From: Parcubacteria bacterium C7867-006
GTDB taxonomy: Bacteria; Patescibacteriota; Minisyncoccia; Phycocordibacterales; DATDWN01
DNA: 64,000 nt
Assembly: GCA_001189155.1 (NCBI GenBank)
Contig: LFCP01000004.1
Span: 1,998-65,997 of the forward strand
Reading direction: 5' to 3'
Numbering within the stretch: position 1 is the stretch's first letter; every line of letters begins with the position of its first letter. Position numbers and translations under genes: made by a program. The notes under the pieces were generated by a model. It had not been told where the DNA came from. It saw only the letters and a program-made list of their open reading frames with translations, and made no database searches. Of the stretch, positions 3,842 through 63,633 are shown one piece after another.

Positions 3842-3843
3842 TA

Positions 3844-3871
3844 TTGACTTTTTTAAAAAATAAGTTATACT
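3844..3871 (+). promoter_or_regulatory. sigma70-like promoter TTGACT-N16-TATACT upstream of the GC-rich clpP-like cassette
   Basis: TTGACT at 3844-3849, TATACT at 3866-3871, about 26 nt before RBS aaaggggag and ATG 3898. Confidence 0.4.
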
Positions 3872-3897
3872 ATGTGGCTAGGAAAGGGGAGTTAGCT

Positions 3898-4470
3898 ATG
3901 AATGACTTGCAGAGAAGGTGGCTTGAGAAGAATCGCATCGGCATCATCGACGAGGTCAATCGCGACATGTTCGTTTATGTTCGCGAGGCAATCGCCATCA
4001 AAATGGGTGAAGGTGGCCCACCAATCACAGTTCACATCTCAAGTGGTGGTGGCGCTGTTGTATGGGGTCTCGATATCTATGACCTCATCAACTTCTACCC
4101 GGGCAAGAAGGTCGGGGTCGTACATTCTATGGCGGCATCGATGGCATCCATCATCCTCCAGGCGTGTGACTGGCGAACGGCAACACCTTACGCTTCAGTT
4201 CTGATTCACCACGTGAACAACCAGAACCTCAAGCTGGATGTTGCCAGAGACAAGAATGAGCTCGAGAAGTTCATCGCCGGCATGGAGAAGAGCCAGAGCA
4301 AGTTGTATGAGATTCTTGTTCGGCGCACTGGAAAACCGATGGAGGAAATCAGTGCCCGTTGCAAGATGGAAGAATCCATGACTGCGCAGGAGGCGCTCAA
4401 CTATCACCTCATCGACCAGATTGTGGTTCAGGAGTCTGACGTGGTGATTCCAGAACCCGAAAAGAAATAA
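3898..4470 (+). CDS. ClpP-like serine protease (S14 family) encoded on a GC-rich islet
   Basis: Aligns by eye to ClpP: GGAVVWGLDIYD, catalytic Ser context VHSMAASMASI, His context SVLIHH, and the C-terminal EALNYHLIDQIV block. The ORF-track start at 3814 is an AT-rich in-frame extension. The true start is ATG 3898, preceded by an SD. GC-ending codons contrast with the flanks. Confidence 0.65.
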   Translation: MNDLQRRWLEKNRIGIIDEVNRDMFVYVREAIAIKMGEGGPPITVHISSGGGAVVWGLDIYDLINFYPGKKVGVVHSMAASMASIILQACDWRTATPYASVLIHHVNNQNLKLDVARDKNELEKFIAGMEKSQSKLYEILVRRTGKPMEEISARCKMEESMTAQEALNYHLIDQIVVQESDVVIPEPEKK

Positions 4471-4471
4471 C

Positions 4472-4528
4472 AGCTTCATGCAGGAGAGCCGATTGCGGCC
4501 CGCCTGCATGAAGCTTTTCTGTTTTTTA
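4472..4528 (+). terminator. rho-independent terminator (13-bp GC-rich stem + T-run)
   Basis: agcttcatgcagg ... cctgcatgaagct followed by tttctgtttttt. Confidence 0.6.
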
Positions 4529-4551
4529 ATAAAATCTGTTAGAATATTTCT

Positions 4552-5532
4552 ATGACTAAAAAAACATTACTTTCGGGAGTAAAACCTACAGGACGGCCAC
4601 ATATTGGAAACTATTTTGGTGCTATGCGCCAGTTCGTTGATATGCAGGATGAGTATAATGCTATATATATGATAGCTGACTATCACGCGCTTAACTTTAT
4701 TCAAAATAAAGAGGAGTTGAATCAAGCTATCATTGATTTAACTATAGACTATCTAGCTCTAGGTTTGGACCCTAAAAAATCTATTATTTTCAAACAATCA
4801 GATGTAATGGAGCATACAGAATTGGCTTGGATTTTTGACACTATTACAACAATGCCGTATCTAGAGAGAGCTCATGCATACAAGGATGCCGAGGTAAAGA
4901 ATAAGGAAATAAGTGTTGGAACTTTTAACTACCCGATGCTTATGGCTGCAGATATTTTGTTATATGACGTTGATGCAGTACCTGTTGGTCAGGATCAAAA
5001 ACAGCATGTTGAGTATGCTCGTGATACAGCACAAAAATTTAACTTCATTTTTGGAAAAGAAGTTTTTAAACTTCCTGAATCAAAGATATTAGGTGAAGTA
5101 GCAGTCGTTCCTGGAATTGATGGTCAGAAAATGAGTAAAAGTTATGGAAACACAATTCCGCTTTTTGCTACATTGGATGAAATCACAAAAGCAGTGATGT
5201 CTATTCCTACAGACTCAAAACCAATGAACGAACCTAGAAATCCGGAGGAAGACAATGTTTTTAAACTTCACAAACTATTTTCAAAATCAGAGGATTTATT
5301 TGTTTTGAGAGAAAGATATGAAAAAGGTGAAATAGGTCACAAAGAATCAAAAGAGATTTTGATAAAAAATATTGATGCTTTTATTGCACCACTTCGTGAA
5401 AAGAGAGATCAAATAGCTCACGATATAGATTATGTTCTAGATGTTTTGAAAGATGGTGGAAAGAGAGCAAAAGCAAAAGCAGAAAAGAAAATGGAAGCTG
5501 TGCGAGAGGTGATAGGAGTTAAACTATACTAA
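4552..5532 (+). CDS. trpS: tryptophanyl-tRNA synthetase
   Basis: Class I HIGH-type motif PTGRPHIGNYFGA and the KMSKS motif (QKMSKSYGN). Length 326 aa. Confidence 0.9.
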   Translation: MTKKTLLSGVKPTGRPHIGNYFGAMRQFVDMQDEYNAIYMIADYHALNFIQNKEELNQAIIDLTIDYLALGLDPKKSIIFKQSDVMEHTELAWIFDTITTMPYLERAHAYKDAEVKNKEISVGTFNYPMLMAADILLYDVDAVPVGQDQKQHVEYARDTAQKFNFIFGKEVFKLPESKILGEVAVVPGIDGQKMSKSYGNTIPLFATLDEITKAVMSIPTDSKPMNEPRNPEEDNVFKLHKLFSKSEDLFVLRERYEKGEIGHKESKEILIKNIDAFIAPLREKRDQIAHDIDYVLDVLKDGGKRAKAKAEKKMEAVREVIGVKLY

Positions 5533-5561
5533 GAGACTCTATTTTGATAGTATAAAATTCT

Positions 5562-6956
5562 ATGAAAAGAACTTATATAAAGGATTTGAGTAAGGAAGTT
5601 GGTCAGGAAGTTACTATTTCTGGCTGGGTGGATGTTCGTCGAGACCAAGGGAAAATGGTCTTTATGGATATGCGAGATATGACTGGAAAGGTGCAAGGTG
5701 TTGTTCTCCCAAACCATCCAGAGGCTATAGAGCAGGTAAAAGAGGTGAGAAACGAATGGGTTCTCTCTGTAACTGGCCTTATAAATAAACGACCAGAAAG
5801 AAATGTTAAAGCTGGTGTTCTAAATGGTGATATAGAAATGGAAATCACTGGTATAGAAGTTTTGAATAAATCAGAGACTATTCCTTTTGATATTTCTGGG
5901 GACACAAAAGAAATAAATGAGGAAGTTCGTTTGAAGTATAGATATGTTGATTTGCGTTCAGATAGAATGCAGAAAAATATCAGGAATCGGCACAAAGTAA
6001 TAAAGTTTATTCGAGATTATTTGGATAATGAAAACTTTATTGAAGTTGAGACTCCTATACTTACAAAATCAACTCCAGAAGGTTCACGAGATTATGTTGT
6101 GCCTGCGAGACTTTATCCAGGAAAGTTTTATGCACTTCCACAATCACCACAACAGTACAAACAACTACTTATGACAGCTGGTGTAGAGAAATATTTCCAG
6201 ATTGCACGATGTATGCGAGATGAGGATACTCGCGGAGACAGACAACCAGAGTTCACACAGTTAGATATGGAAATGAGTTTTGTTAAACAAGAAGATGTAA
6301 TGGAACTAAATGAGAAACTTTTGATCGAACTTGTTACAAAACTATATCCAGAAAAGAAAATTCAACAGATTCCTTTCCCACGACTTACATATGCAGAAGC
6401 AATGGAGAAGTATGGAAACGATAAACCTGATCTAAGAGAAGATAAAAATGATCCAGACTTACTGGCTTTCTGTTGGGTTATTGATTTTCCTTTCTTTGAG
6501 AAAACAGACACAGGAGCATGGACATTTACACACAACCCATTTTCACGACCAAAGCCAGAACATGTTGAGTGGCTAATGAAAAAAGAAAATATTGGTGAAA
6601 TACTGACAACTCAGTATGACGTTGCTCTAAACGGTATGGAAATTGGTGGAGGAAGTATAAGAAACCATGATCCAGAGGCTTTGCGAAAAGTTTTTGAAAT
6701 AATGGGTCACGAGTCAGATGCTATAGACAGAAACTTCGGTCATATGATGACAGCTTTTTCTCTTGGAACTCCACCACACGGAGGTATCGCTTGGGGACTA
6801 GATAGGTTCGTGATGACACTTCAGAATGAACCGAACATTCGTGAAGTTATTCCTTTTGCAAAAACAGGAGAAGGTAAAGACCCTATGATGGACTCTCCAG
6901 CAGAAATTTCTGTTGACCAACTATTGGAACTCGGAATTACTCTAAGAAAGAAATAA
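5562..6956 (+). CDS. aspS: aspartyl-tRNA synthetase, short (archaeal/non-discriminating-type, no GAD insertion). AsnRS not fully excluded
   Basis: Class IIb motifs: LPQSPQQYKQLLM, ARCMRDED, GGGSIR. At 464 aa it lacks the bacterial insertion domain. Confidence 0.75.
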   Translation: MKRTYIKDLSKEVGQEVTISGWVDVRRDQGKMVFMDMRDMTGKVQGVVLPNHPEAIEQVKEVRNEWVLSVTGLINKRPERNVKAGVLNGDIEMEITGIEVLNKSETIPFDISGDTKEINEEVRLKYRYVDLRSDRMQKNIRNRHKVIKFIRDYLDNENFIEVETPILTKSTPEGSRDYVVPARLYPGKFYALPQSPQQYKQLLMTAGVEKYFQIARCMRDEDTRGDRQPEFTQLDMEMSFVKQEDVMELNEKLLIELVTKLYPEKKIQQIPFPRLTYAEAMEKYGNDKPDLREDKNDPDLLAFCWVIDFPFFEKTDTGAWTFTHNPFSRPKPEHVEWLMKKENIGEILTTQYDVALNGMEIGGGSIRNHDPEALRKVFEIMGHESDAIDRNFGHMMTAFSLGTPPHGGIAWGLDRFVMTLQNEPNIREVIPFAKTGEGKDPMMDSPAEISVDQLLELGITLRKK

Positions 6957-13018: not shown

Positions 13019-13249
13019 TTAGTTAGAGTTGCTCATGAATTCAAACAGTATCAACCTCAGAATAGAAAGGAAGAAGAAGCCACTTGATAGCATGCCGATC
13101 GCATACATCAAGCTTCCTCTCAGGCCCCTGGGCTGGTAGCCTGAAATCATGAACGTTATTGATGTGAACTGATGGTTCACACCGAGGTAGAAGATTACTC
13201 CCGCGAGCATGGCCAGACCAGACAACACTGTGGTTCCTAAGGTCTCCAT
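13019..13249 (-). CDS. small (76 aa) two-helix membrane protein on a GC-rich islet inserted between mraY and ftsW
   Basis: Strong RBS aaggag 6 nt before the ATG (minus strand), two hydrophobic helices, GC-richer than the flanks. Confidence 0.45.
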   Translation of the reverse strand: METLGTTVLSGLAMLAGVIFYLGVNHQFTSITFMISGYQPRGLRGSLMYAIGMLSSGFFFLSILRLILFEFMSNSN

Positions 13250-18585: not shown

Positions 18586-18626
18586 CGAAACCCGCTTCTG
18601 ACACTGTGTCAAAAGCGGGTTCAGAG
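18586..18626. terminator. bidirectional intrinsic terminator
   Basis: aacccgctt ... aagcgggtt 9-bp stem sitting between convergent genes. Confidence 0.5.
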
Positions 18627-18932
18627 TCTTGGGCGAATTTCCTTGAACGCCAATATAACTGCTCTGTAGAACAAATCGTTAGCCAGCCAGAACGACGGCT
18701 CACTGTAGAGGATGATGTTAATCAGCTCTTCACCTAGTTTCTCTGGTTTGTAGAAGCTGATGATTTCATCCTTCTTTTTCTCGATCACCTCCGGTTTTCT
18801 GATAACGAGTCTTCTGTTGATCAGGAACTCCATGACCTTGATACGCTTGTCGGCCAAGGTCAGCTTGTCTGGGAACTCGTGCTTTTTCTGTCCGAACCAA
18901 CTTTCCTTTCCGCGGATCACTCGTCCAGCCAC
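18621..18932 (-). CDS. hypothetical protein (103 aa) on a GC-rich islet
   Basis: GTG start preceded by aaaggag. GC-ending codons. No motif recognised. Confidence 0.45.
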   Translation of the reverse strand: MAGRVIRGKESWFGQKKHEFPDKLTLADKRIKVMEFLINRRLVIRKPEVIEKKKDEIISFYKPEKLGEELINIILYSEPSFWLANDLFYRAVILAFKEIRPRL

Positions 18933-26757: not shown

Positions 26758-26973
26758 GTGTCTACAGGGAGGAAGACTTTGAACATCATCATCACGAACA
26801 GAAGCAGCGACTACCACGCTGCAATTGAAGGAAGGCCTGAGATCTGGGGAAACGGCACAACTCCCCGAGAAGCCATCGGCAACCTCGTTCAATCGCACAA
26901 GGAGGTGTTCGGGATCACTGAGATCCAAAGCACAATACCAGCAATTGAGATCTACTCAACGCTAGTCGGCTAG
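26758..26973 (+). CDS. small HicB-like / UPF0150-like protein on a GC-rich islet (start probably TTG 26779)
   Basis: DYHAAIEGRPE-IWGNGTTPREAIGNLVQSH resembles the HicB antitoxin core (Y.A.I....G.G.T..EA..N). RBS gggagg lies 5 nt before TTG. No hicA partner was seen. Confidence 0.35.
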   Translation: MSTGRKTLNIIITNRSSDYHAAIEGRPEIWGNGTTPREAIGNLVQSHKEVFGITEIQSTIPAIEIYSTLVG

Positions 26974-27220
26974 TCATACCGTCATCGTGGCGGCGAATTA
27001 ATTGCCAGCACGATCGGCGGTTTTTTCGTATAAATATTATCACTTTCCCCAATGAGGCGTGCAAAGCTTTTCAGACTTTGCTTCTTGGAAATACCACAGG
27101 AGTACTTCAAATTTCTAATCGCTTTGCTCAAGAAATTTTGGTCGCCCACGGTTTTCCAACGCTCACTATCGCTCACTGCCTTCCGACACAGGAGAGACCT
27201 TTCTCTCCCGACCCCACTCT

Positions 27221-27296
27221 CACCACAGTGGAGTAAACTAAACAAAAAATCCCTTTCGGGATTGTTTTGTTTTTAACGCTTACTCCACTGTGGTGC
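27221..27296. promoter_or_regulatory. rpsI 3' terminator hairpin enclosed by a perfect 16-bp inverted repeat that includes the rpsI stop region
   Basis: caccacagtggagtaa (27221-27236) and ttactccactgtggtg (27281-27296) flank the hairpin aaacaaaaaatccc tttc gggattgttttgttt. Confidence 0.5.
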
Positions 27297-47783: not shown

Positions 47784-47877
47784 AATAAAACACTATACAG
47801 CAAAACACAGTTTTTTTGAAATTCTGAACAAAATATAAAAAGTTGATGATAAAATTATATACAGAAGGAGGACCGCT

Positions 47878-48492
47878 ATGCGAGATTTCTTGTTTTTCCT
47901 GCTCGCTACTTTCCTCCTGTTACCAAATGTAGCAGAAGGAAAAAGCAGCCTAGTTGGAAGCACTGTCTCTCAACACAAACAAAACGACCACGCCGAAGAA
48001 GAAGGTCTTCCTCAAATCAGAAATGATGAGGAACTAAACACTCTAAAAGAATCCGGAGCGCTCGTCCCAATTCCGGGAACCGTAAGAGTGGACTACCGAC
48101 TAGAAGACAAATGGCGTTGGTGTCTTCCCCAGACATCGTTCTTTCTTGGAGATATTGGACTCGAGTTCCAAGAAGTTTTTGGAAAACGACTCCAAATCAA
48201 CTCGGCAGTCAGGACAACACTGAGACAAATTGAGCTCCAAAAAACGAACAACAACGCTGTACCTGTCACTGGTCGTCGTCGGTCTTCCCACCTCACTGGG
48301 GCAACAGTGGACATTGCCAAAATCGGTCTCACAAAAGATGAACTTGAGTGGGTTCGATTAAAACTCCTCTCTCTAGAAGACGAGGAAAAACTGGAGGCAA
48401 CAGAAGAACACGATCAACTCGTTTTCCATGTAATGATTTTCCAGAGCTACACAAACGAAGCCAAGGCTTCGGAACTGCGAGCGCAGCAATAG
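47878..48492 (+). CDS. secreted LAS-superfamily zinc peptidase (peptidase M15 / DUF882-like) on a GC-rich islet
   Basis: Signal peptide MRDFLFFLLATFLLLPNVAEG. SAVRT ... RSSHLTGATVDI matches the SxHxxGxAxDI metal-binding motif of M15/VanY-like peptidases, with a second His later (FHVM). Confidence 0.5.
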   Translation: MRDFLFFLLATFLLLPNVAEGKSSLVGSTVSQHKQNDHAEEEGLPQIRNDEELNTLKESGALVPIPGTVRVDYRLEDKWRWCLPQTSFFLGDIGLEFQEVFGKRLQINSAVRTTLRQIELQKTNNNAVPVTGRRRSSHLTGATVDIAKIGLTKDELEWVRLKLLSLEDEEKLEATEEHDQLVFHVMIFQSYTNEAKASELRAQQ

Positions 48493-48508
48493 GCGCTCGC
48501 AGTTTTTC
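48476..48508 (+). terminator. intrinsic terminator, perfect 10-bp GC stem + T-run
   Basis: ctgcgagcgc agcaatag gcgctcgcag ttttt. Confidence 0.6.
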
Positions 48509-48516
48509 TTTAATAA

Positions 48517-48552
48517 GAAAACTCCCGAAACCTTGCTAGGGTCTCGGGAGTG
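48517..48552 (-). terminator. intrinsic terminator for the convergent minus-strand gene
   Basis: actcccgaaacc ... ggtctcgggagt stem. The minus-strand reading is followed by a U-rich run. Confidence 0.5.
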
Positions 48553-48570
48553 ACTGAGAATACTGGAGAA

Positions 48571-49410
48571 CTAGGTCTTCAGCACGCCGAAGAACTGACG
48601 TGCAGCAGCCTGAACCGCAGTGAGCTCAGCTTCAGCCTTATCAGCCCGACTCTTCTCTTGAGCCAAGGCTTCGTTCGCCAACTTCAGATCAGCGGTGACT
48701 TTCGCAACCTCCTCGCGGTAAAGCTCAAGCTCCGCGAGCTGATCCTGGGTAGAAGCAATCTGCCCCTCGAGTTCAGAGACTCTCATGGACAGATCGGTGC
48801 TCTGTTTCTGCAGTGGAGCGATCGAGCGACGGAGTTCGTCACACTCCTGCTCCTTCCTGATAAACAGTTGATACTGTTTGAGAACATTGTCGATGACCTC
48901 ACCCAGGTTGGGAATCCCACTTCGGAACTTCTCCAACTGACGGGCAGAATCGCTCCAGCCCTTATAGGGAGAAGACGAGCCGTTCCCGTCAGCCTTGTTC
49001 AGATCCTGAACAAGAACCGACGGAACAGGACCCTGATCCTCCACCGATGGATGTTCCTTCGGCTTCTCCTTTTCATTCGGGTAAGCCGAACTAAGAAGAT
49101 CCCGAATCTCAGCGGGGGTCAGAGTCTTGGGATGAAGAATCGCTCCATCGGGCCGGTCGTTCTTGATCTTCATCGTCAGCTCGTGATCGACGAAGCGGGT
49201 CTGAAGAATGAGTCCCGTGTTGCTCGGAACTGTGCACTTCTTACTGTCATCAGTGAACCAGAACAGCAAACGTCGGTCGCCCTTGTTGTACCAACCACCC
49301 ATGTTGCTCGGCCTGACGCCAGCAACAAGAATGGTGCCGTTGTTGGCGAGAACTGTCTTGGCCTGTTCGATGAGAGTGCTGGTGATCATGATCCGCTCCT
49401 TTTCCGACAC
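48571..49410 (-). CDS. hypothetical protein: N-terminal globular domain + C-terminal coiled-coil (GC-rich islet)
   Basis: RBS aaaggag 7 nt before the ATG on the minus strand. The C-terminal 110 aa is heptad-rich (LQKQSTDLSMRVSELEGQIASTQDQLAELE...). The antisense 297-aa plus-strand ORF is rejected. Confidence 0.5.
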   Translation of the reverse strand: MSEKERIMITSTLIEQAKTVLANNGTILVAGVRPSNMGGWYNKGDRRLLFWFTDDSKKCTVPSNTGLILQTRFVDHELTMKIKNDRPDGAILHPKTLTPAEIRDLLSSAYPNEKEKPKEHPSVEDQGPVPSVLVQDLNKADGNGSSSPYKGWSDSARQLEKFRSGIPNLGEVIDNVLKQYQLFIRKEQECDELRRSIAPLQKQSTDLSMRVSELEGQIASTQDQLAELELYREEVAKVTADLKLANEALAQEKSRADKAEAELTAVQAAARQFFGVLKT

Positions 49411-49509
49411 GTCCGTTTACCACGGACTGGGTTGAGGATTTAAAAAGAACACCTCGAAGGAGGATTATGACATGATTGTTATAATTTGTAAATATAACTA
49501 CTATTTTGT

Positions 49510-50085
49510 TTAATAAACTCTTTTACCGTATTTAACAAATTTAGAAACCCACTTTGCACGTCGTTCTGGAGATATTTTTTTCATTGGTCCACATTTTTTC
49601 ATTTGGGTATGAATACCAGCAAACCAAAGTATTCCATCCTGAATCTCATTTGTATTATCACCAAAAAGAAATCTAGCCAGTATAGGATTAGAATCTGAAG
49701 TTACAAAAACTCTAGCTGTTTTACCCTTTAAAAGCCTCCACCAGCCCAAGCCATTTGGTTTGAACTTGTAAGCAAAACCGGGAAGCCACGATCTATCAAA
49801 CAAACCTTTGAGCAATGCCGGCATTGTAGACCACCATGATGGATAGATAATAACTAAATGGTCACACCATTTAACATCTTCTTGAAACTTCAATAAATCT
49901 GGCTCCAGTGCTTGAATAACTTTGTATCCCTTGTGAAGTATCGGATCAAACTGCATATCACCGAGATTTGTTCTCCTTACCTCGTGACCAGCTTCCTTTG
50001 CACCTTTAGCATAAGCATCCGCAAACTCGCAACACATAGACTCAGTGTCAGGATGCCCCAACAGTACAAAGATTTTTTTAGACAT
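49510..50085 (-). CDS. flavodoxin-like fold NAD(P)H dehydrogenase (quinone) family protein
   Basis: IFVLLGHPDTESMCCEFADAYAKGAKEAGHEV and HLVIIYPSWWSTMPALLKGLFDR match the Flavodoxin_2/NQO-like signature. Confidence 0.65.
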   Translation of the reverse strand: MSKKIFVLLGHPDTESMCCEFADAYAKGAKEAGHEVRRTNLGDMQFDPILHKGYKVIQALEPDLLKFQEDVKWCDHLVIIYPSWWSTMPALLKGLFDRSWLPGFAYKFKPNGLGWWRLLKGKTARVFVTSDSNPILARFLFGDNTNEIQDGILWFAGIHTQMKKCGPMKKISPERRAKWVSKFVKYGKRVY

Positions 50086-50094
50086 ATCTATATA

Positions 50095-51239: not shown

Positions 51240-51263
51240 AGGGTAAATCTTGTGCCGTGGGTG

Positions 51264-51527
51264 CTAGTCGTGACCCTCCGGACTCATGTTGAGGTTGTCC
51301 CAGCGACAGGCCTTGAGCCCCTCGCAAGAATTGAAGAACGTGCACTTGCGCGCCTCGGAGCCGAGCTGGCAACCGCGCGTCTGGCGATCTCCCGTCGTGA
51401 TGTGACTGAAGAGGATCTCATCAGACTGAATCCTGTTCAGACGCCCTGGCAGGGTAACTCCCTGCAGGGCCCGAAATTCCTCCACAACTTCGATGTGACG
51501 TGTGACTTCGCGGGACAAACCTTCCAT
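51264..51527 (-). CDS. small 4-Cys hypothetical protein (87 aa), GC-rich islet
   Basis: RBS gaggagg 8 nt before the ATG. C-terminal Cys cluster C-x9-C-x6-C-x5-C. The antisense plus ORF is rejected. Confidence 0.45.
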   Translation of the reverse strand: MEGLSREVTRHIEVVEEFRALQGVTLPGRLNRIQSDEILFSHITTGDRQTRGCQLGSEARKCTFFNSCEGLKACRWDNLNMSPEGHD

Positions 51528-51685
51528 TATGCGCCTCCTCTAATATAGTACGACTAACACATTTAGCTGTCAAATAATATTTTTAATATACCAACCAAAA
51601 CAAGGATATATTTATTTATAATTTGACAAAATATTGTTATATATGTAGGATTTTTCTCTGAAAGGCCTTAGGAGGGCCTGAGTTC

Positions 51686-51883
51686 ATGGGGAAAGAGACC
51701 AGAGGATTCGCATCGATGTCACCGGAGAAGCAGCGTGAGATCGCAAGCAAGGGCGGCCGGGCCGCACACGAGAAGGGCAAGGCCCACGAGTGGACCAGCG
51801 ATGAAGCTCGTGAGGCTGGACGCAAGGGCGGCATGGCCAGTCGTGGCGGGCGCGGCAAGACTACCGCTCAGCCGACGACCTAG
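51686..51883 (+). CDS. KGG-repeat general stress protein (YciG/Con-10-like)
   Basis: Repeated KGG/RGG motifs (ASKGGRAAHEKGKAHEWTSDEAREAGRKGGMASRGGRGK). RBS aggaggg. GC-rich. Confidence 0.55.
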   Translation: MGKETRGFASMSPEKQREIASKGGRAAHEKGKAHEWTSDEAREAGRKGGMASRGGRGKTTAQPTT

Positions 51884-54100: not shown

Positions 54101-54442
54101 TTACTTTCTGACAAGTCCGAGGTTTGCTCGGACTTTATCGTTCAAATTCTTGATATCTTCAGCCTTCACATCTCCTTTCGGAAGTTCGTTCATCTTGCTC
54201 AGGCACTGAGCCTGAAAAGAAACGTCGTGATCTGCTCTGATAACGAGCAGAGCGGCATCGCTCGAGGCTTGAGCCCCGACCTTCGAGATGGAGGGCCAAC
54301 CAATAGCCCTCACGATGCGTTTCATCACCTGACCGTGTGCCGTTGGCTGAGGTGGATCCGCTCGAGCCATCTCCAAAATCATCTTTGGAATTTCTTCCAC
54401 GACAACTGGTGGATTGTAGAAATGCGAGTTCTTCCAACTCAT
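54101..54442 (-). CDS. hypothetical protein (113 aa) on a GC-rich islet
   Basis: RBS ggaggggg precedes the ATG. GC-ending codons. Overlapping plus-strand ORFs are rejected. Confidence 0.45.
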   Translation of the reverse strand: MSWKNSHFYNPPVVVEEIPKMILEMARADPPQPTAHGQVMKRIVRAIGWPSISKVGAQASSDAALLVIRADHDVSFQAQCLSKMNELPKGDVKAEDIKNLNDKVRANLGLVRK

Positions 54443-58273: not shown

Positions 58274-58675
58274 TTACACCTCACCCAACAAATACGCAAT
58301 GTTTGTGTAAACAACCTTTTTTGCCTCCTCTAGAGGGAACCATTTTGATTTCGTGCCTTCTTCGGCTGTAGCTTTTTGGCCAAGTGACTTTGCTTTGAAC
58401 ATTGCGACGACTATCTCCTCGTCTGTGCCACCTCTCAAATATTTTAAATCCGACAGTCTAGAGATGATTTCAACTTCATAACCAGTTTCCTCCAAAACCT
58501 CTCTCACGGCTACATCCTCAAGATTTTCTCCTGCCTCAGCATGACCTTTTGGATATGACCAGATATCCTCGTCCACTCTACTCACCAGCAAAACTTCGTT
58601 GTTGTCGTTTACAACAACACAACCCGCTTTCATAGTCTCCCCGCTTTCATTTTTTATTTTTTTCTCGTGTGACAT
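58274..58675 (-). CDS. NUDIX hydrolase (third copy, small, GC-richer)
   Basis: Nudix box GHAEAGENLEDVAVREVLEETG. The ORF-track N-terminal extension to 58942 overlaps the next membrane gene and is rejected. Confidence 0.65.
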   Translation of the reverse strand: MSHEKKIKNESGETMKAGCVVVNDNNEVLLVSRVDEDIWSYPKGHAEAGENLEDVAVREVLEETGYEVEIISRLSDLKYLRGGTDEEIVVAMFKAKSLGQKATAEEGTKSKWFPLEEAKKVVYTNIAYLLGEV

Positions 58676-58683
58676 TTTGTGAT

Positions 58684-59082
58684 TTAAATATTGTTGAAAC
58701 TTCTCAAAAAGAACTTTCCACCAAACCAAACAAATAGAGGACCAGATACGGCAAGCGCAACAGGATACCAATGGTTGCCCAAACTCCATCCGGAAACTGC
58801 TCCAGCGACTCCACCTATACCACCAAGAATCATAAGGACATACACGTGCTTTATAGGATTTGCAGGAGCCAAACGTGCTGTGACATATCCACCTACTACC
58901 GTGTAAATACTGCGATAGAAAAGAGCCAGGGCCAGCATCCATGTGACATATGATCCAGAGTCAGCAGAAGAAGGAAATACTCCAAACTTTTCGAGCACAA
59001 CGTCAGTGGCTATAGATAAAAATGCAACTGAAACAAACCCCACTATCACTGACCCGATACTTTTAAATATATTTTTATTCAT
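58684..59082 (-). CDS. small polytopic membrane protein
   Basis: Four hydrophobic helices. GC-richer than the backbone. Confidence 0.4.
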   Translation of the reverse strand: MNKNIFKSIGSVIVGFVSVAFLSIATDVVLEKFGVFPSSADSGSYVTWMLALALFYRSIYTVVGGYVTARLAPANPIKHVYVLMILGGIGGVAGAVSGWSLGNHWYPVALAVSGPLFVWFGGKFFLRSFNNI

Positions 59083-59113: not shown

Positions 59114-59515
59114 TTATTTGCTAGAGATTGCGCTGGTAATAAAGTAAGTCACCGTAGATACAGAAGCTGCGAGCACGGCGCCCCAGATCATGTCCACGAT
59201 AGTTATGAGTAGTGGCCAGTCTTTTGCCACAGCGAGGTTGGTGAGGTCGTATGTTGCATAGCAGACAAGACCGAACAGTGCGCCGAACATAACTGCGTAC
59301 ATCCATGAACCTTTTTCTACTGCTGGAGTGATAACGAAAACAACTAGTCCAACGATGAACAAAAGGTAGAAAGTTATTGCTGCGACCCAGTTAACATCTG
59401 TTTTGAGAAGTGAGCCTATCTGAGCACGATAAAAGTTTTTTGAAACAACACCTAGCCAGAACATGTCGATAGCAAAGAAAACTGGAAGAGCTATAACGTA
59501 AAGTTTTATGAACAT
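59114..59515 (-). CDS. small polytopic membrane protein (DUF2177-like)
   Basis: Four hydrophobic helices. GC-richer than the backbone. Confidence 0.4.
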   Translation of the reverse strand: MFIKLYVIALPVFFAIDMFWLGVVSKNFYRAQIGSLLKTDVNWVAAITFYLLFIVGLVVFVITPAVEKGSWMYAVMFGALFGLVCYATYDLTNLAVAKDWPLLITIVDMIWGAVLAASVSTVTYFITSAISSK

Positions 59516-60572: not shown

Positions 60573-61925
60573 CTAGTCCTTACTCCTGACCGTGGTCCTC
60601 AAGTCAACCTGATCGCGGAGCATGGTCAATTTTTCAGCGAGATCATCGATCTCCTTGAGAACGTTCTGTCTGTCCTCAAGTGGACGATTTTGAAAGAGCT
60701 CATCGATTGCACGATGGGGCATGTCAACGAGATGCTCCAAGTTCTCGTTCGCCTTCCGCAGATAGTTGCGCAGGATTACGTAATCCTCTCTTGGACTACG
60801 TCCGGGTGACCCAACCCTGATGCCGGCGGCCGAAGCCAACTGGCGAGCCAGATGTTTGGCCTTCGCAACACTAAGACCCTTCTCGACAGCCTCCTTGCAG
60901 ACTTTGAGTTGAATCTCCCGGCTCTCGATTGACGCCAGGAAAACACCCATGGACTGTGGAAGTGCCGAACGCTCATTGTCGTCCGGCTCCAACATATCCT
61001 GAACTTCCTTTGGCAGGTTGAGAAGCTTCAGGTAGTTGAATGCCCAGACGTCGGTCTTGCCGGTCAACGAGGCGATGATCCTGAGAGCAGCCATCTTGCT
61101 GAGGTCTGCATATTCAGGAAAATCCATCATGCGCCGAATTGAGCGAGCGGTCTCGAGAGGAGTGTGTCCTTCGCGAGCAAAGTTCGCCACGAAAGACTTC
61201 TTGAACTGGTCTTCGGAGTCTTTGACCTCCCTGACCGTAGCGAGCATCTCCTCGACACCGAGCTTGGTGCAAGCACGAAGCCGTCGCTCACCCTCAATCA
61301 GCTCATAGTCAAAGTTGGGGTCATCATCGATCGGACGAACGATGATCGCCGTAACCTGACCAATGGCCTTGATGCTGGTCATGAGTTCCTGCATCTTCTT
61401 GGGACTGAAGTACGTGCGAGGTTGACCCTTGAGGGGTCTCACCCGTTTCGTCTTCACCAGGAACTCACCCTCCCACTTTCTTGGTGCTGGAGGTACAGTC
61501 ACAGGACCGGGGCTGCGCATGAGGTGAGCCGGAATCTGCCGTCTGGTGGTAACACCAGGCACAGCGTAATCAGCTCCGTTACCATTGCCGTTCCCGTTTC
61601 CACCAACTTCATCGCTGAAATAGGTGTTGAGGTTCTTTTCCAGATGGTTCGAGGAGTACTCGGTGTGAATCTGGTCGTCCTTGATGCCGTTCTTTCTTGC
61701 CCACGTTTTGATGATGTTCTCGGCATCTTTCTTCATTGCGTATGGAAGAACGATTCCAACCACACCGTCAGGCACAGTACCGGCGCCAAGGAACTCCCAT
61801 GAGTTCATCCAGTGGACACGTGCTCCAAACCGGAGTTGTGCCTTTCTGGGTAGGCTCATGTTGACGACAATGATCTTTCCACCGGAAGGAAAGGGCAGAC
61901 CACTAGTTGTGTTGCTCAAACTCAA
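60573..61925 (-). CDS. ParB/Srx-fold (ParB N-terminal domain) protein with N-terminal extension and GNGNGNGNG linker. Orphan (no parA)
   Basis: IKAIGQVTAIIVRPID ... YELIEGERRLRACTKLG and NFAREGHTPLETARS match ParB boxes. TTG start with RBS ggagg. GC-rich islet. Confidence 0.6.
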   Translation of the reverse strand: MSLSNTTSGLPFPSGGKIIVVNMSLPRKAQLRFGARVHWMNSWEFLGAGTVPDGVVGIVLPYAMKKDAENIIKTWARKNGIKDDQIHTEYSSNHLEKNLNTYFSDEVGGNGNGNGNGADYAVPGVTTRRQIPAHLMRSPGPVTVPPAPRKWEGEFLVKTKRVRPLKGQPRTYFSPKKMQELMTSIKAIGQVTAIIVRPIDDDPNFDYELIEGERRLRACTKLGVEEMLATVREVKDSEDQFKKSFVANFAREGHTPLETARSIRRMMDFPEYADLSKMAALRIIASLTGKTDVWAFNYLKLLNLPKEVQDMLEPDDNERSALPQSMGVFLASIESREIQLKVCKEAVEKGLSVAKAKHLARQLASAAGIRVGSPGRSPREDYVILRNYLRKANENLEHLVDMPHRAIDELFQNRPLEDRQNVLKEIDDLAEKLTMLRDQVDLRTTVRSKD

Positions 61926-62061
61926 CCTCCGAGGAAATAGTTACGAATTTGTTGGTGCTATTCCGTTTTTCAGTCTAGTAAATATATAAATTATTGTCTA
62001 TGATTCCAAACTATTAGATTTGTTGTGTATTTTTATTTTTTTTGGTAATCTAATTGTTACT

Positions 62062-62150
62062 GGGCCCGTAGCTCATCTGGCAGTTGCGTAGCAACAAGTC
62101 AAATAGCCACATCATTTGAGCAAATGATTAAACGGGTCTAAAACAAGTTT
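62062..62150 (+). pseudogene. degenerate tRNA-Ala copy (5' acceptor + D-arm intact, T-arm deleted, internal insertion)
   Basis: The first 19 nt gggcccgtagctcatctgg are identical to the downstream tRNA-Ala. It also shares cacatcatttg and cgggtc, but cannot form a cloverleaf. Confidence 0.4.
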
Positions 62151-62164
62151 GAAATTTAATATTT

Positions 62165-62237
62165 GGGCCCGTAGCTCATCTGGTAGAGCACATCATTTGC
62201 AATGATGGGGTGGCAGGTTCGAGTCCTGTCGGGTCCA
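62165..62237 (+). tRNA. tRNA-Ala (anticodon UGC)
   Basis: Manual cloverleaf: acceptor GGGCCCG/CGGGTCC with G3:U70, D-arm GCTC-ATCTGGTA-GAGC, anticodon arm CATCA-TTTGCAA-TGATG, T-arm GCAGG-TTCGAGT-CCTGT, discriminator A. CCA is not encoded. Confidence 0.9.
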
Positions 62238-62239
62238 CA

Positions 62240-62270
62240 GAAAAAAGTCCGCTGTAAGGCGGATTTTTTC
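62240..62270. terminator. short hairpin flanked by A6/T6 runs after the tRNA
   Basis: aaaaaag tccgc tgtaag gcgga ttttttc. Confidence 0.4.
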
Positions 62271-62271
62271 G

Positions 62272-62360
62272 TGACCCGAAGTAAAGCGAAGCTTTACTTC
62301 AGGACTCGAACGGAAACCTGGTTACGCGGCGAGTGCGCCGTGTCAGGTTTCCGCGTCCTA
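62272..62360. repeat. structured non-coding segment carrying an inverted 12-nt copy of the tRNA-Ala T-arm plus nested long stem-loops
   Basis: caggactcgaac (62296-62307) is the reverse complement of gttcgagtcctg in the tRNA. Stems cgaagtaaagc/gctttacttcg and cggaaacctg/caggtttccg. Confidence 0.35.
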
Positions 62361-62513
62361 ACTTTTATTGAGTGGCGATGAATTAAAAGTTAGGAAGAGT
62401 CCTGTGTTTCAGAACAAGTGTACTAACCCTATAAGGGTCAAATCCGATATTTAACATTTGACAATCCTCCCAAAATACCGCAATCTTTTGCTCAGAGCGA
62501 GGGAGGCTCTTTA

Positions 62514-62873
62514 ATGCAAAACACTGTCGCAAAAGAAGCGACATTGCAGACTAAAGCCGTAAAATCGTGGCTGAAATCTGCAGGTTACAGAGAAGTAACC
62601 AGGATGGACCTCAAAGCTAATGGGGTTCTCATCATGGTAGACACGACAAGAATCAAACCGGTTGAAGATGGTGAGATCAAAGCAGGTTACACTGCGGGCA
62701 CCACACTAGTTCAACTCGGCAACCCACCGATAACCGAAAGCGAAATGTTCGGCGGGCTTGAAGTTCTACACTTCCAGATGACCTACCCTGCAATGGGCAG
62801 ACATTCGTTTGTGCCGGTAGACGATGTGCTTACCGGCAAAGAGTCAACGCTCTGGTTTGTTGAAAAGGAGTAG
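62514..62873 (+). CDS. hypothetical protein (119 aa), paralog A of a tandem pair on a GC-rich islet
   Basis: RBS gagggagg precedes the ATG. Shares blocks with the next ORF: GVLIMVDTTRI~CIVMVDVQRL, EVLHFQMTYPAMGRHSFVPVDDVL~KVVHFRHIERASHRPDFVPLEEIL, LWFVEK~RYFVRR. Confidence 0.45.
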   Translation: MQNTVAKEATLQTKAVKSWLKSAGYREVTRMDLKANGVLIMVDTTRIKPVEDGEIKAGYTAGTTLVQLGNPPITESEMFGGLEVLHFQMTYPAMGRHSFVPVDDVLTGKESTLWFVEKE

Positions 62874-62877
62874 ATAG

Positions 62878-63258
62878 GTGGACAATCCACGTTACTTTGA
62901 AGAGGAGATCTTCAAAGCCAAAGCTGTCATGGCGCAACTCGGCTTCGATCCAGTCAAACTGGAGGACATCGTCGCGGACAACTGTATCGTGATGGTGGAT
63001 GTCCAGCGACTCTGCGCCCACAACGCACCTCCAAGCAAACTCGGTGAGGCAGGAACGTCGGTCATCTGCATCGACAACGAGCCAATCCGTGAGCACGAAA
63101 GGATTGCTGGACGAAAGGTGGTCCACTTCCGCCACATCGAGAGAGCTTCCCACAGACCAGACTTTGTCCCTTTGGAGGAAATACTCCGAGACGAGTACGA
63201 CCCGCGAGTCGCCAACTCGTCCGACACGCGCTACTTCGTGAGGCGCAAACGCGATTAG
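62878..63258 (+). CDS. hypothetical protein (126 aa), paralog B of tandem pair
   Basis: GTG start with RBS aaaggag, 4 nt after paralog A's stop. Homology blocks as above. Confidence 0.45.
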   Translation: MDNPRYFEEEIFKAKAVMAQLGFDPVKLEDIVADNCIVMVDVQRLCAHNAPPSKLGEAGTSVICIDNEPIREHERIAGRKVVHFRHIERASHRPDFVPLEEILRDEYDPRVANSSDTRYFVRRKRD

Positions 63259-63282
63259 CGCTACGACTAGACGTCGCACGAG

Positions 63283-63313
63283 AGCCCCGGCCGATACCGG
63301 GGTTCTTTTTTTA
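63283..63313 (+). terminator. intrinsic terminator (ccccgg/ccgggg stem + T7)
   Basis: gagccccggccgataccggggttcttttttt. Confidence 0.6.
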
Positions 63314-63336
63314 TATAAAAAAGATATAATTAAAAT

Positions 63337-63633
63337 ATGTCTATAGAAAATCCAGAAAATGATAAAAAAATAAACCCTGCAGAAATTGAGACTCAAAAAG
63401 AAGAAGAGATTTGGGAGTCTTTTAAAAATACAGAGTCAAAAGAAAACATTAAAAATATTTTTGAAAGTATACTAGAAAAACTTGTAATGGAAGATTACAA
63501 ATACTACCTAGAAGAAACAGAATTTGGAGTTGCTGTAAAAAGAACTGACAATAACGAAACAATTTATTTTACAGATGTAGAGGCTGAGATTGAGACACTG
63601 TACGAAGCAGTAGCAAAAGGAAGAGTTGATTAG
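63337..63633 (+). CDS. hypothetical acidic protein (98 aa)
   Basis: Glu-rich. No motif recognised. Confidence 0.35.
   Translation: MSIENPENDKKINPAEIETQKEEEIWESFKNTESKENIKNIFESILEKLVMEDYKYYLEETEFGVAVKRTDNNETIYFTDVEAEIETLYEAVAKGRVD

What the first reader, a model, noticed from the sequence alone, without database searches (positions are those of the whole stretch)
47860..49470. Convergent foreign gene pair: secreted M15/LAS zinc peptidase and a coiled-coil protein, separated by back-to-back terminators
This is the largest GC-rich islet.

The plus gene encodes a signal-peptide protein with the SxHxxGxAxDI ... H zinc-binding signature of VanY/L-Ala-D-Glu-peptidase-type cell-wall hydrolases. Such hydrolases are frequent in phage endolysins and contact-dependent effectors.

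The minus gene encodes a 279-aa protein with a globular N-domain and a 110-aa coiled-coil, and has a small hairpin directly upstream of its RBS.

Two perfect terminators sit tail-to-tail between the genes. A strong orphan RBS (aaggagga) plus a 13-codon mini-ORF lies at the islet's right edge, from about 49455.

The cargo type and composition suggest an acquired wall-remodelling, interbacterial-interaction or phage-derived module.
Basis: partly seen in the sequence, partly recalled or inferred. Interest (0 to 1): 0.55.

Follow-up and report, generated by a model that had tools for sequence, protein, structure and literature searches.

The report
Two unrelated GC-rich accessory genes
The GC-rich patch holds two real but functionally unlinked accessory genes of a groundwater Parcubacteria genome: a secreted zinc-peptidase-like cell-wall protein that close relatives also carry at the same spot, and a rare head-plus-long-helix protein whose distant relatives sit in phage genomes. 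It is a tidy example of mosaic genome make-up rather than a new system.

Summary
The sequence features are real: two convergent genes, each with its own terminator, in a 1.6-kb stretch of 50% GC inside a 37% GC genome (Parcubacteria bacterium C7867-006).

- **Gene 1 (47878-48492, +)** is a clear member of Pfam DUF5715.
  - It has a signal-peptide-like N-terminus and an invariant SSHxTGATVDI…FH zinc-peptidase (LAS/M15) motif.
  - It misses the curated M15 profile cut-offs and lacks the usual acid three residues before the last His.
  - It is not a recent arrival: three close relatives carry it at the same place beside ychF, with the same raised GC. It diverges faster than its neighbours (55-65% against 86-96% identity).
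- **Gene 2 (48571-49389, -)** sits in a variable slot and has no Pfam match of its own.
  - It belongs to a rare unannotated family: a ~105-residue α/β head weakly like DUF2325, a disordered linker and a ~125-residue helix.
  - In Paceibacteria this family is a hypervariable single-gene insert that is always GC-richer than its host.
  - Distant relatives lie in high-GC phage contigs.
- **No module.** The two genes co-occur nowhere else.

The "orphan RBS" overlaps gene 2's likely promoter. The window holds at least 12 similar GC-rich islets. Interest is modest.

The parts
47865..47871 (+). Shine-Dalgarno AAGGAGG of gene 1
   Evidence: Read from the sequence; it ends 6 nt before the ATG.
47878..48492 (+). 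Gene 1: 204-aa DUF5715 protein with a signal-peptide-like N-terminus and a LAS/M15-type zinc motif
   Evidence: Pfam DUF5715 E = 2.9e-19, 69.8 bits against a cut-off of 26.8. Peptidase_M15_3 E = 0.015, below its cut-off. 100% identical to AB201_01675 of Parcubacteria bacterium C7867-006. GC 0.46 and GC3 0.43.
48283..48315 (+). Motif S136-S-H138-L-T-G-A-T-V-D145-I: the first two proposed zinc ligands (His, Asp)
   Evidence: S136, H138, G141, T143 and D145 are invariant in 25 homologues. The motif aligns with the SRHLTGHAVD segment of ChiX 5opz, though that match is not significant (E = 2).
48403..48429 (+). Invariant E176-E177 ... Q180 ... F183-H184: proposed third zinc ligand and candidate catalytic acids
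   Evidence: Invariant columns in A3. The residue three before H184 is Leu and varies, so the canonical ExxH/DxxH acid is absent.
48471..48506 (+). Intrinsic terminator of gene 1; its stem overlaps the stop codon
   Evidence: 14-pair stem with 8 G-C pairs, followed by a T-run. Perfect 12-nt inverted repeat I3.
48521..48551 (-). Intrinsic terminator of gene 2
   Evidence: 12-pair stem with 7 G-C pairs, followed by a T-run. Inverted repeat I4.
48571..49389 (-). Gene 2: 272-aa cytoplasmic protein of a rare unannotated family (alternative GTG start at 49410 gives 279 aa)
   Evidence: 34 relatives among 1.84 billion representative proteins, best non-self E = 2e-36. Only itself in the word-indexed search. 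GC 0.54 and GC3 0.64.
49075..49389 (-). Gene 2 head, residues 1-105: four-stranded parallel α/β domain, weakly DUF2325-like
   Evidence: pLDDT 91-98 with β-α-β-β-α-β-α order. This is the conserved part of family alignment A1. 6 of 31 members hit DUF2325 below threshold, best E = 3.5e-4. No significant structural neighbour in PDB or BFVD.
48574..48951 (-). Gene 2 residues 147-271: one long helix, a presumed coiled coil. Its end carries a motif (RA..AE.EL ... [LF]F) conserved in the subfamily that lacks the middle domain
   Evidence: pLDDT 87-98. Only generic coiled-coil matches in Pfam, NCBIfam and PADLOC. C-termini compared.
49397..49427 (-). RBS of gene 2 (AAGGAG, 49402-49397) and a 6-bp hairpin (49427-49411) just upstream
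   Evidence: Read from the sequence. The leader fold is not better than shuffles, z = -0.75.
49464..49492 (-). Best promoter-like site for gene 2 (TTTACA-17-CATAAT, with TG)
   Evidence: 10 of 12 consensus matches, the best of four sites in the region.
49457..49513 (+). 'Orphan' aaggagga plus 13-codon ORF (49472-49513); probably not functional
   Evidence: It abuts and overlaps by one base gene 2's -10 box on the other strand. The ORF runs into the stop region of the flavodoxin-like gene. The region has no counterpart in relatives, so conservation could not be tested.

Best explanation
The islet is two independent accessory transcription units that happen to sit tail to tail. It is not a functional pair.

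**Gene 1**
- It encodes a Sec-exported DUF5715 protein with the LAS/M15 metal-binding signature: NSxxR, SxHxxGxAxD and a distal His.
- I infer that it binds zinc and trims or cleaves peptidoglycan stem peptides outside the membrane. The target would be the cell's own wall, since peptidoglycan synthesis is core in Parcubacteria, or a partner cell's wall.
- It is a resident of this genus-level clade, fixed beside ychF.
- It evolves faster than its neighbours and keeps a GC level near 45%. That level is typical of the standalone DUF5715 group, whatever the host GC.

**Gene 2**
- It encodes a cytoplasmic protein with a small α/β head, a flexible linker and a ~125-residue helix that probably dimerises.
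- Its family is a rare, hypervariable, single-gene accessory insert in Paceibacteria. It is always GC-richer than the host.
- Distant relatives with an extra middle domain lie in the early or replication regions of high-GC phage genomes.
- I infer that it is of phage or mobile-element origin and acts as a scaffold or adaptor on DNA-associated machinery. That function is a guess.

**Shown and inferred**
- Shown: gene structures, family memberships, synteny, composition and phage relatives.
- Inferred: zinc binding, the substrate, dimerisation and the role of gene 2.
For: **Gene 1**
- DUF5715 scores 69.8 bits.
- All 25 relatives hit DUF5715, 21 hit VanY and 20 hit Peptidase_M15_3 below threshold.
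- The motifs are invariant.
- It is syntenic beside ychF in L002, L003 and L004.
- Identity to relatives is 55-65%, against 94-96% for YchF and 86% for LeuRS.
- GC3 is 0.42-0.46 in all relatives, against 0.26-0.31 for neighbours.
- Among 63 DUF5715 loci, the standalone group has gene GC of about 0.33-0.59 (mostly 0.42-0.59) in hosts of 0.29-0.55.
- Peptidoglycan synthesis is core in Parcubacteria (PMC4508563).

**Gene 2**
- The family was found by exhaustive HMMER and aligned. The model has pLDDT 88.
- Four members lie immediately upstream of dnaX, three of them between dus and dnaX (the fourth contig ends too soon to show dus). Only 2 of 80 related dnaX loci carry a member.
- The insert has 43-52% DNA identity inside flanks of 78-85%.
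- Protein identity is 26-36% between members, while DnaX is 69-87%.
- Gene GC exceeds host GC in every Paceibacteria-type locus.
- P0042 and P0047 lie in contigs of GC 0.61-0.66. These carry a terminase (PHROG E = 4e-43, 36% identical to Arthrobacter phage terminases), a replication initiator, an integrase and a ParB-like gene.

**No linkage**
- The two families co-occur only in this genome.
- The window shares no similarity with L002 between 48445 and 50070.
Against: **Gene 1**
- No curated M15 profile passes its cut-off.
- No significant PDB sequence match was found; ChiX has E = 2.
- The acid expected three residues before the last His is a variable Leu.
- No structure was predicted for gene 1, so fold and activity are untested.

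**Gene 2**
- Its own sequence has no DUF2325 hit.
- Foldseek found nothing with E <= 0.001.
- Phage relatives are distant: E = 2.6e-6 and 1e-4, with 33-36% identity over the head only.
- No relative was found in INPHARED, IMG/VR or PLSDB.
- The direction of transfer between phages and Paceibacteria is unknown.

**Composition**
- Raised GC shared by three syntenic relatives could reflect constraint or biased gene conversion rather than foreign origin.
Confidence: 0.65

Rival explanations
1. One reading: both genes arrived together as one foreign wall-remodelling, interbacterial or phage-derived module.
For: - Both genes are GC-rich and adjacent.
- Gene 1 has a peptidase motif found in endolysins.
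- Gene 2's family has phage relatives.
Against: - Gene 1 is syntenic in three relatives without gene 2.
- The families are never adjacent elsewhere.
- Their GC3 differs, 0.43 against 0.64.
- They are convergent, each with its own promoter region and terminator.
- No phage homologue of gene 1 was found.
- No integrase, flanking tRNA or significant flanking repeat is present.
Confidence: 0.07
2. The raised GC is not a mark of foreign origin. Both genes are old residents at recombination hot spots, where frequent allele exchange through the conserved flanks, perhaps with GC-biased gene conversion, keeps them both divergent and GC-rich.
For: - L009 against L011 shows sharp drops from about 80% to about 45% DNA identity exactly over the gene-2-family insert. 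The last ~90 nt of the gene and both intergenic flanks stay conserved.
- Gene 1 has the same raised GC3 in three syntenic relatives despite only 55-65% identity.
- Highly expressed native genes (DnaK, ribosomal proteins, RpoA) have low GC3, so expression level is not the cause.
Against: - In high-GC phage contigs, and in high-GC DUF5715 hosts, these genes have native composition. The offset appears only in low-GC hosts, as expected for transfer followed by slow amelioration.
- The gene-2 family is absent from 78 of 80 related dus-dnaX junctions.
- No population data were available to measure recombination.
Confidence: 0.2
3. Gene 2 is a native replication-associated factor. It would be a coiled-coil adaptor comparable in role to YabA, acting with the clamp loader or sliding clamp, that has moved away from dnaX in this genome.
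For: - Four divergent family members lie immediately upstream of dnaX on the same strand.
- 7 of 31 members give weak YabA matches, best E = 0.058.
- Most members that lack the middle domain end in an [LF]F-type motif. From my own knowledge, this resembles sliding-clamp-binding peptides.
Against: - The YabA matches are coiled-coil noise, far below the 30-bit cut-off.
- The dus-dnaX junction is empty in about 45 of about 70 related genomes and holds unrelated small genes in about 20 others.
- In this window and in L013 the gene is not near dnaX.
- Phage members sit in other contexts.
Confidence: 0.1
4. The islet is an assembly or binning chimera that joins reads from a higher-GC organism into a low-GC contig.
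For: The GC steps are abrupt, and higher-GC Parcubacteria (48-56% GC) occur in the same sample.
Against: - A separate assembly of run SRR2043728 reproduces the same 7.6-kb arrangement.
- Gene 1 is syntenic in relatives from other samples.
- Both edges of the islet lie inside continuous native sequence, with fitting promoters and terminators.
Confidence: 0.02

Closest known systems
Pfam DUF5715 (PF18979), family of unknown function
   Same: Gene 1 matches nearly the whole profile (positions 3-170 of 171) at E = 2.9e-19, as do all 25 relatives. It is a straightforward member.
   Different: - The family has no assigned function, and no paper in the searched library mentions it.
- This analysis adds three points. 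The family carries an invariant LAS-type motif set. It splits into standalone ~200-aa proteins and a high-GC clade where it is the C-terminal domain of 300-870-aa proteins. The standalone genes are GC-shifted in low-GC hosts.
LAS / MEROPS M15 zinc peptidases (VanY, VanX, ChiX, phage T5 and Ply500 L-Ala-D-Glu peptidases)
   Same: - It has the NSxxR arginine motif, SxHxxGxAxD (His-x6-Asp) and a distal His.
- Weak hits to VanY and Peptidase_M15_3 recur across the family.
- The motif-level alignment to ChiX 5opz falls in the expected place.
- The protein is small and secreted.
   Different: - It scores below every curated M15 cut-off.
- The acid expected three residues before the last His is missing. 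Instead, invariant Glu-Glu lies 7-8 residues before it. From memory, the Glu-to-His spacing in Sonic hedgehog (E177/H183) is similar.
- It has no phage relatives and no cell-wall-binding domain.
- Activity and substrate are untested.
DUF2325 (PF10087) proteins, e.g. Campylobacter jejuni Cj1384c
   Same: - Gene 2's head is a ~100-residue β-α-β-β-α-β-α domain with a VxVxGG-like first strand and a T-x-F-x-x-H segment after the third strand.
- 6 of 31 family members hit DUF2325 weakly.
- A viral DUF2325 protein is among the weak Foldseek matches.
   Different: - Gene 2 itself has no DUF2325 hit.
- DUF2325 itself has no known function (PMC9426514).
- Cj1384c is a 104-aa cysteine-rich protein without a coiled coil.
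- The linker and long helix are specific to this family.
Single-gene phage-derived inserts (morons and accessory cassettes) in bacterial chromosomes
   Same: Gene 2 is a self-contained unit with its own promoter-like site and terminator. Its composition is atypical, its presence among relatives is variable, and it has homologues in phage genomes.
   Different: - It does not lie in a prophage.
- No integrase or att-like repeat is nearby.
- The closest relatives are chromosomal Paceibacteria genes rather than phage genes.

Membership tests
Pfam DUF5715 (gene 1) | Profile score at or above the curated gathering cut-off | tested here: met
   69.8 bits against a cut-off of 26.8, E = 2.9e-19, covering profile positions 3-170 of 171.
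LAS / M15 zinc peptidase (gene 1) | Metal-ligand triad His-x6-Asp ... His within SxHxxGxAxD, plus the upstream Arg motif | tested here: met
   R112, H138, D145 and H184 are invariant in 25 homologues.
LAS / M15 zinc peptidase (gene 1) | Match to a curated M15 family profile (Peptidase_M15_3, VanY, M15_4) above its cut-off | tested here: not met
   Peptidase_M15_3 scores 15.8 bits against a cut-off of 23.2. Across the family the best E is 6.1e-5 for VanY (21 of 25 members) and 2.5e-4 for M15_3 (20 of 25); these are weak hits.
LAS / M15 zinc peptidase (gene 1) | Catalytic acid three residues before the last His (ExxH or DxxH) | tested here: not met
   That position is L181 and varies among L, A, S, K, T, C and D. 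Invariant E176/E177 lie 7-8 residues upstream and may substitute, which is inference.
LAS / M15 zinc peptidase (gene 1) | LAS fold with the three ligands clustered around a metal site | tested here: inconclusive
   Both structure-prediction jobs went to gene 2. The PDB sequence-profile search gave only a marginal ChiX match, E = 2.
LAS / M15 zinc peptidase (gene 1) | Zinc-dependent hydrolysis of peptidoglycan stem peptides | not testable with these tools
   This needs biochemistry.
Phage endolysin (gene 1) | Homologues encoded in phage genomes or lysis cassettes | tested here: not met
   PHROG endolysin E = 0.053. No relative was confirmed in IMG/VR. No tblastn match in 50,697 phage records. 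Neighbours are housekeeping genes.
Recently acquired genomic island (both genes) | Composition unlike the host genome | tested here: met
   GC3 is 0.43 for gene 1 and 0.64 for gene 2, against a window median of 0.273.
Recently acquired genomic island (both genes) | Absence from close relatives at the same locus | tested here: not met
   Not met for gene 1, which is present beside ychF in L002, L003 and L004. Met for gene 2, whose slot 48493-50090 has no counterpart in L002 or L003. The pair as a unit therefore fails.
Recently acquired genomic island (both genes) | Mobility hallmarks at the borders (integrase, tRNA, significant direct repeats) | tested here: not met
   The only tRNA is at 62165. 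A 13-nt repeat flanks gene 2, but 3 of 41 native-gene controls reach the same length.
Two-gene functional module, e.g. effector and partner | Conserved co-occurrence or co-transcription of the two families | tested here: not met
   The genes are convergent with separate terminators. There is no co-occurrence in any other locus examined.
DUF2325 (gene 2 head) | Profile match to PF10087 | tested here: inconclusive
   Gene 2 itself has no hit. 6 of 31 family members hit below threshold, best E = 3.5e-4. No profile-profile comparison with DUF2325 was possible.
YabA-type replication regulator (gene 2) | Profile match beyond the coiled coil, with a C-terminal zinc-binding domain | tested here: not met
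   YabA E >= 0.058, confined to the helix. There is no Cys/His cluster at the C-terminus.
Known anti-phage defence proteins (gene 2) | Match to a PADLOC model outside coiled-coil regions | tested here: not met
   Only weak JetC and LmuB coiled-coil matches, in at most 2 of 31 members.

The most novel reading that the evidence does not exclude
Both genes may belong to a pool of accessory single-gene inserts in Patescibacteria. These inserts are repeatedly swapped through conserved flanking genes, stay GC-richer than their hosts, diverge several times faster than their neighbours, and include genes shared with phages of high-GC bacteria.

With at least 12 such islets in 64 kb, this would describe a distinct mode of accessory-genome turnover in these tiny symbiont genomes. 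The inserts could carry a record of which partners or phages supply their DNA.
Probability: 0.2. Interest if true: 0.6.

Novelty: new member of a known kind. Interest (0 to 1): 0.36.

Why it matters
- **For annotation.** DUF5715 can reasonably be described as a LAS/M15-like secreted putative peptidoglycan peptidase with an unusual acid placement. A rare family with a small head and a long helix can be defined, with members in Paceibacteria and in uncultivated phages.
- **For the biology of these reduced groundwater symbionts.**
  - A fast-evolving secreted wall peptidase is a candidate for the cell-cell interface.
  - The many small GC-rich islets raise a testable question: where does a 36% GC, 0.65-Mb genome get its accessory genes, and how does it keep them?
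- None of this amounts to a new kind of system.

Tried and rejected
1. **Gene 2 as an orphan.** The word-indexed search found only itself. Exhaustive HMMER then found a family.
2. **Structure of gene 2 without an alignment.** The head had pLDDT of about 30 and was useless. It was redone with the alignment.
5. **The N-terminus of the GC-rich ParB-like protein (60573-61925) as a relative of gene 2's head.** It looks similar by eye but is not supported by hhalign or hmmsearch.
6. **Target-site duplication around gene 2.** TTTTCTTTAATAA at 48504 and 49504 is not significant: 4 matches in the window against 1.3 expected, and 3 of 41 native controls have equally long flanking repeats.
7. **Regulatory leader for gene 2.** The fold has z = -0.75, and no Rfam match falls in the region.
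8. **Raised GC3 through high expression.** DnaK, ribosomal proteins and RpoA have GC3 of 0.16-0.36.
9. **Gene 1 taken from the high-GC DUF5715 clade.** The standalone genes are not nested in that clade in the NJ tree.
10. **Shared neighbours.** The other islet proteins of the window, and the L013 islet neighbours, have no relatives in the phage contigs.
11. **Defence-system and plasmid links for gene 2.** None was found.
Full report
**Source and setting**

Gene 1 is 100% identical to AB201_01675 of Parcubacteria bacterium C7867-006. This is a 0.65-Mb, 36% GC genome bin from oxic Hanford groundwater (PMC4508563). The window averages 36.7% GC. Around the finding lie ordinary genes: LeuRS, a DUF5671 membrane protein, a cupin, YchF, a flavodoxin-like reductase, YceG and a SurA-like protein.

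**Observation**

- The stretch 47901-49500 is the longest run at or above 45% GC.
- Gene 1 (47878-48492, +) has a strong Shine-Dalgarno sequence and a hydrophobic N-terminus.
- Gene 2 runs on the minus strand from 49389 to 48571. The ATG there has AAGGAG 7 nt upstream. The longest ORF starts at a GTG at 49410, but an independent gene call uses the ATG.
- Two strong hairpin terminators (48471-48506 on +, 48551-48521 on -) flank a shared A/T tract.
- A long antisense ORF (48550-49443, +) overlaps gene 2. The conserved protein family shows that the minus strand is the coding one.
- The hairpin before gene 2's RBS is real but unremarkable (z = -0.75).
- The "orphan" aaggagga and its 13-codon ORF abut and overlap by one base the -10 box of the best promoter-like site for gene 2 on the other strand. 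I read it as coincidence.

**Gene 1**

- It is a full-length member of Pfam DUF5715 (E = 2.9e-19). It has only a sub-threshold Peptidase_M15_3 hit, no NCBIfam hit and a PHROG endolysin match at E = 0.053.
- In 25 homologues these residues are invariant: N108-S-x-x-R112, Q117, S136-x-H138-x-x-G-x-T-x-D145, E176-E177, Q180 and F183-H184.
- This is the LAS/M15 arrangement: an arginine motif, SxHxxGxAxD and a distal His. That comparison rests on established knowledge of VanX, VanY and related enzymes.
- Across the family, 21 of 25 members hit VanY and 20 of 25 hit M15_3 weakly. A core-only profile aligns the motif with ChiX (5opz), but not significantly (E = 2).
- The usual acid three residues before the last His is absent. 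The invariant Glu pair 7-8 residues upstream may take its place, which is inference.
- No paper in the searched library mentions DUF5715.

**Is gene 1 foreign?**

Not recently.
- Three close relatives carry it divergently beside ychF, exactly as here. Their identity to the window is 94-96% for YchF, 86% for LeuRS and 82% for YceG.
- Its protein identity among them is only 55-65%. DNA identity is 0.5-0.7 against 0.8-0.88 in the flanks.
- GC is 0.44-0.47 and GC3 0.42-0.46 in all of them, against 0.26-0.31 for neighbours.
- Among 80 metagenome loci the family splits in two.
  - One is a tight high-GC clade in which DUF5715 is the C-terminal domain of 300-870-aa proteins next to CysRS, with native composition.
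  - The other is a deep, diverse group of standalone ~200-aa genes.
- The standalone genes have GC of about 0.33-0.59 (mostly 0.42-0.59) whatever the host. They look native in hosts of 43-50% GC. They are 4-14 points too GC-rich in several hosts, notably the lower-GC ones.
- The standalone group is not nested in the high-GC clade.
- The likeliest history is an old acquisition from a mid-GC lineage, before this clade split, or a composition that is actively maintained.
- There is no phage link.

**Gene 2**

- It has no Pfam, NCBIfam, PHROG or PADLOC match beyond coiled-coil noise. The word-indexed search of 5.8 billion proteins found only itself.
- Exhaustive HMMER over 1.84 billion representatives found 34 proteins, the best non-self at E = 2e-36 and 36% identity.
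- The shared architecture is a conserved ~105-residue head, a low-complexity linker, an optional middle domain and a C-terminal helix.
- With that alignment AlphaFold gives pLDDT 88. The head is a four-stranded parallel α/β domain, and a single helix spans residues 147-271.
- Foldseek found no significant neighbour. Weak matches include BRCT domains and a viral DUF2325 protein. Six of 31 members hit DUF2325 below threshold. DUF2325 has no known function.

**Contexts of the gene-2 family**

- Four divergent members (P0028, P0029, P0030, P0043) lie immediately upstream of dnaX, three of them between dus and dnaX; P0028's contig ends too soon to show dus. The downstream protein carries the ALYRKYRP signature of DnaX.
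- Among 80 species-representative genomes sampled around dnaX, only two carry the family.
  - In about 45 genomes dus abuts dnaX.
  - In about 20 genomes the junction holds unrelated small genes, one of them another GC-rich insert (L017).
- Between L009 and L011, DNA identity is 0.78-0.85 in dus and dnaX. It falls to 0.43-0.52 across the family gene. It returns to about 0.79 for the gene's last ~90 nt and the intergenic region. Protein identity is 34% against 83-87% for the neighbours.
- In every Paceibacteria-type locus the gene is GC-richer than its host: 0.60 against 0.49, 0.62 against 0.47, 0.56 against 0.48, 0.51 against 0.36, and here 0.54 against 0.37.
- Two distant members that carry the middle domain are in phage-type contigs of 61-66% GC with native composition.
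  - L096 and L097 have a terminase (PHROG E = 4e-43, 36% identical to Arthrobacter phage terminases), a replication initiator, an integrase, and a second paralogue of the family.
  - L095 (115 kb) has dense small ORFs, a Mgm101-type annealing protein, and a ParB-like gene directly after the family member.
- No relative occurs in INPHARED, IMG/VR or PLSDB.

**Are the two genes a pair?**

No.
- They are convergent and separately terminated.
- The variable slot in this genome (48493 to about 50090) holds gene 2 and a flavodoxin-like gene of native composition.
- In L002 the same slot holds a glycosyltransferase. In L003 and L004 it holds unrelated large ORFs.
- The two families co-occur in no other locus.

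**Wider pattern**

- Of 75 ORFs in the window, median GC3 is 0.273. Native genes, including DnaK, ribosomal proteins and RpoA, span 0.15-0.36.
- At least 12 small islets have GC3 of 0.43-0.65.
- They carry a ClpP-like protease, a KGG stress protein, a NUDIX protein, DUF2177, a ParB-like protein beside tRNA-Ala, a pair of small paralogues and several unmatched ORFs.
- The source paper does not discuss this: it has no occurrence of "horizontal", "GC content" or "islands".
- Other Parcubacteria of 48-56% GC live in the same sample, so plausible donors are at hand.

**Verdict**

- The best reading is two unrelated accessory genes.
  - One is a resident, fast-evolving, secreted LAS-like DUF5715 protein.
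  - The other is an accessory, probably phage- or mobile-element-derived, head-plus-coiled-coil protein from a rare unannotated family.
- The functions of both remain inferred.
- The most interesting open thread is the persistent GC excess and rapid turnover of these inserts across Patescibacteria. It could reflect repeated transfer or recombination-driven exchange.

Noticed in passing
window 3814-4470; 13019-13249; 18621-18932; 26758-27245; 51252-51883; 54101-54442; 58274-58942; 59114-59515; 60573-61925; 62514-63258: Besides the finding, the window holds about ten more small GC-rich islets with GC3 of 0.43-0.65, against a native median of 0.27. Most are single genes: a ClpP-like protease, a KGG stress protein (GC 0.65), NUDIX, DUF2177 and several ORFs with no Pfam match. 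The genome is a fine-grained compositional mosaic.
   Followed up: partly
window 60573-63258: A GC-rich 450-aa ParB_N + HTH_ParB protein with an unassigned ~150-residue N-terminus lies beside the only tRNA (tRNA-Ala-TGC, 62165-62238). Two GC-rich paralogous small genes follow (119 and 126 aa). This may be a remnant of an integrated element at the tRNA.
   Followed up: partly
L015-L094 (dus-dnaX junction in 80 Paceibacteria/Nomurabacteria genomes): The dus-dnaX junction is a variable slot. It is empty in about 45 genomes and holds unrelated small genes in about 20. In L017 it holds an 89-aa gene of GC 0.61 in a 0.375 host (2029-2298).
   Followed up: partly
L009 7976-8696 vs L011: The gene-2-family gene is mosaic. 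Its body shares about 45% DNA identity, while its last ~90 nt and both intergenic flanks share about 79%. This suggests replacement of an internal segment or strong constraint on the C-terminal tail.
   Followed up: partly
L096 10001-10921 and 11406-12200; L097: The ~50-kb high-GC phage contigs carry two paralogues of the gene-2 family about 500 nt apart. They sit in a run of small rightward genes near a PhageMetallopep gene, Cpn10, a replication initiator and an integrase.
   Followed up: partly
L095 10001-11852 and 1103-1630: In the 115-kb high-GC contig, a ParB-like gene (phrog_1033, E = 1e-9) follows the family member after 17 nt. The contig also encodes an RF-1-type release-factor fragment and a Mgm101-type annealing protein.
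   Followed up: no
L013 4374-6830: A low-GC (about 0.36) genome carries a three-gene GC-rich islet before IleRS: a 78-aa gene, a 313-aa family member with the middle domain, and a 204-aa gene. The two neighbours have no relatives in the phage contigs examined.
   Followed up: partly
window 48574-48630 (C-terminus of gene 2) and the ends of P0028-P0031, P0043, P0051: Family members that lack the middle domain share a C-terminal RA..AE.EL segment followed by an [LF]F-type motif (QFFGVL, NALF, FDLF, LKLF). From my own knowledge this resembles sliding-clamp-binding peptides. Given the dnaX adjacency it is worth a co-folding test.
   Followed up: no
L119, L134, L145, L166 (around 4200-5650): In high-GC soil and peat contigs, DUF5715 is the C-terminal domain of 460-540-aa secreted proteins. 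The neighbourhood is conserved, with a 250-aa secreted protein upstream and CysRS two genes downstream.
   Followed up: no
window 48504-48516 and 49504-49516: A 13-nt direct repeat (TTTTCTTTAATAA / TTTTGTTTAATAA), exactly 1000 nt apart, brackets the whole gene 2 unit from promoter to terminator. It is suggestive of an insertion scar but not significant against native-gene controls.
   Followed up: yes
window 48550-49443 (+): A 297-aa antisense ORF overlaps all of gene 2. Similar long antisense ORFs occur in the other GC-rich islets (for example 51252-51548 against 51264-51527, and 62830-63396). They are probably by-products of GC-rich codon usage and could mislead gene callers.
   Followed up: partly
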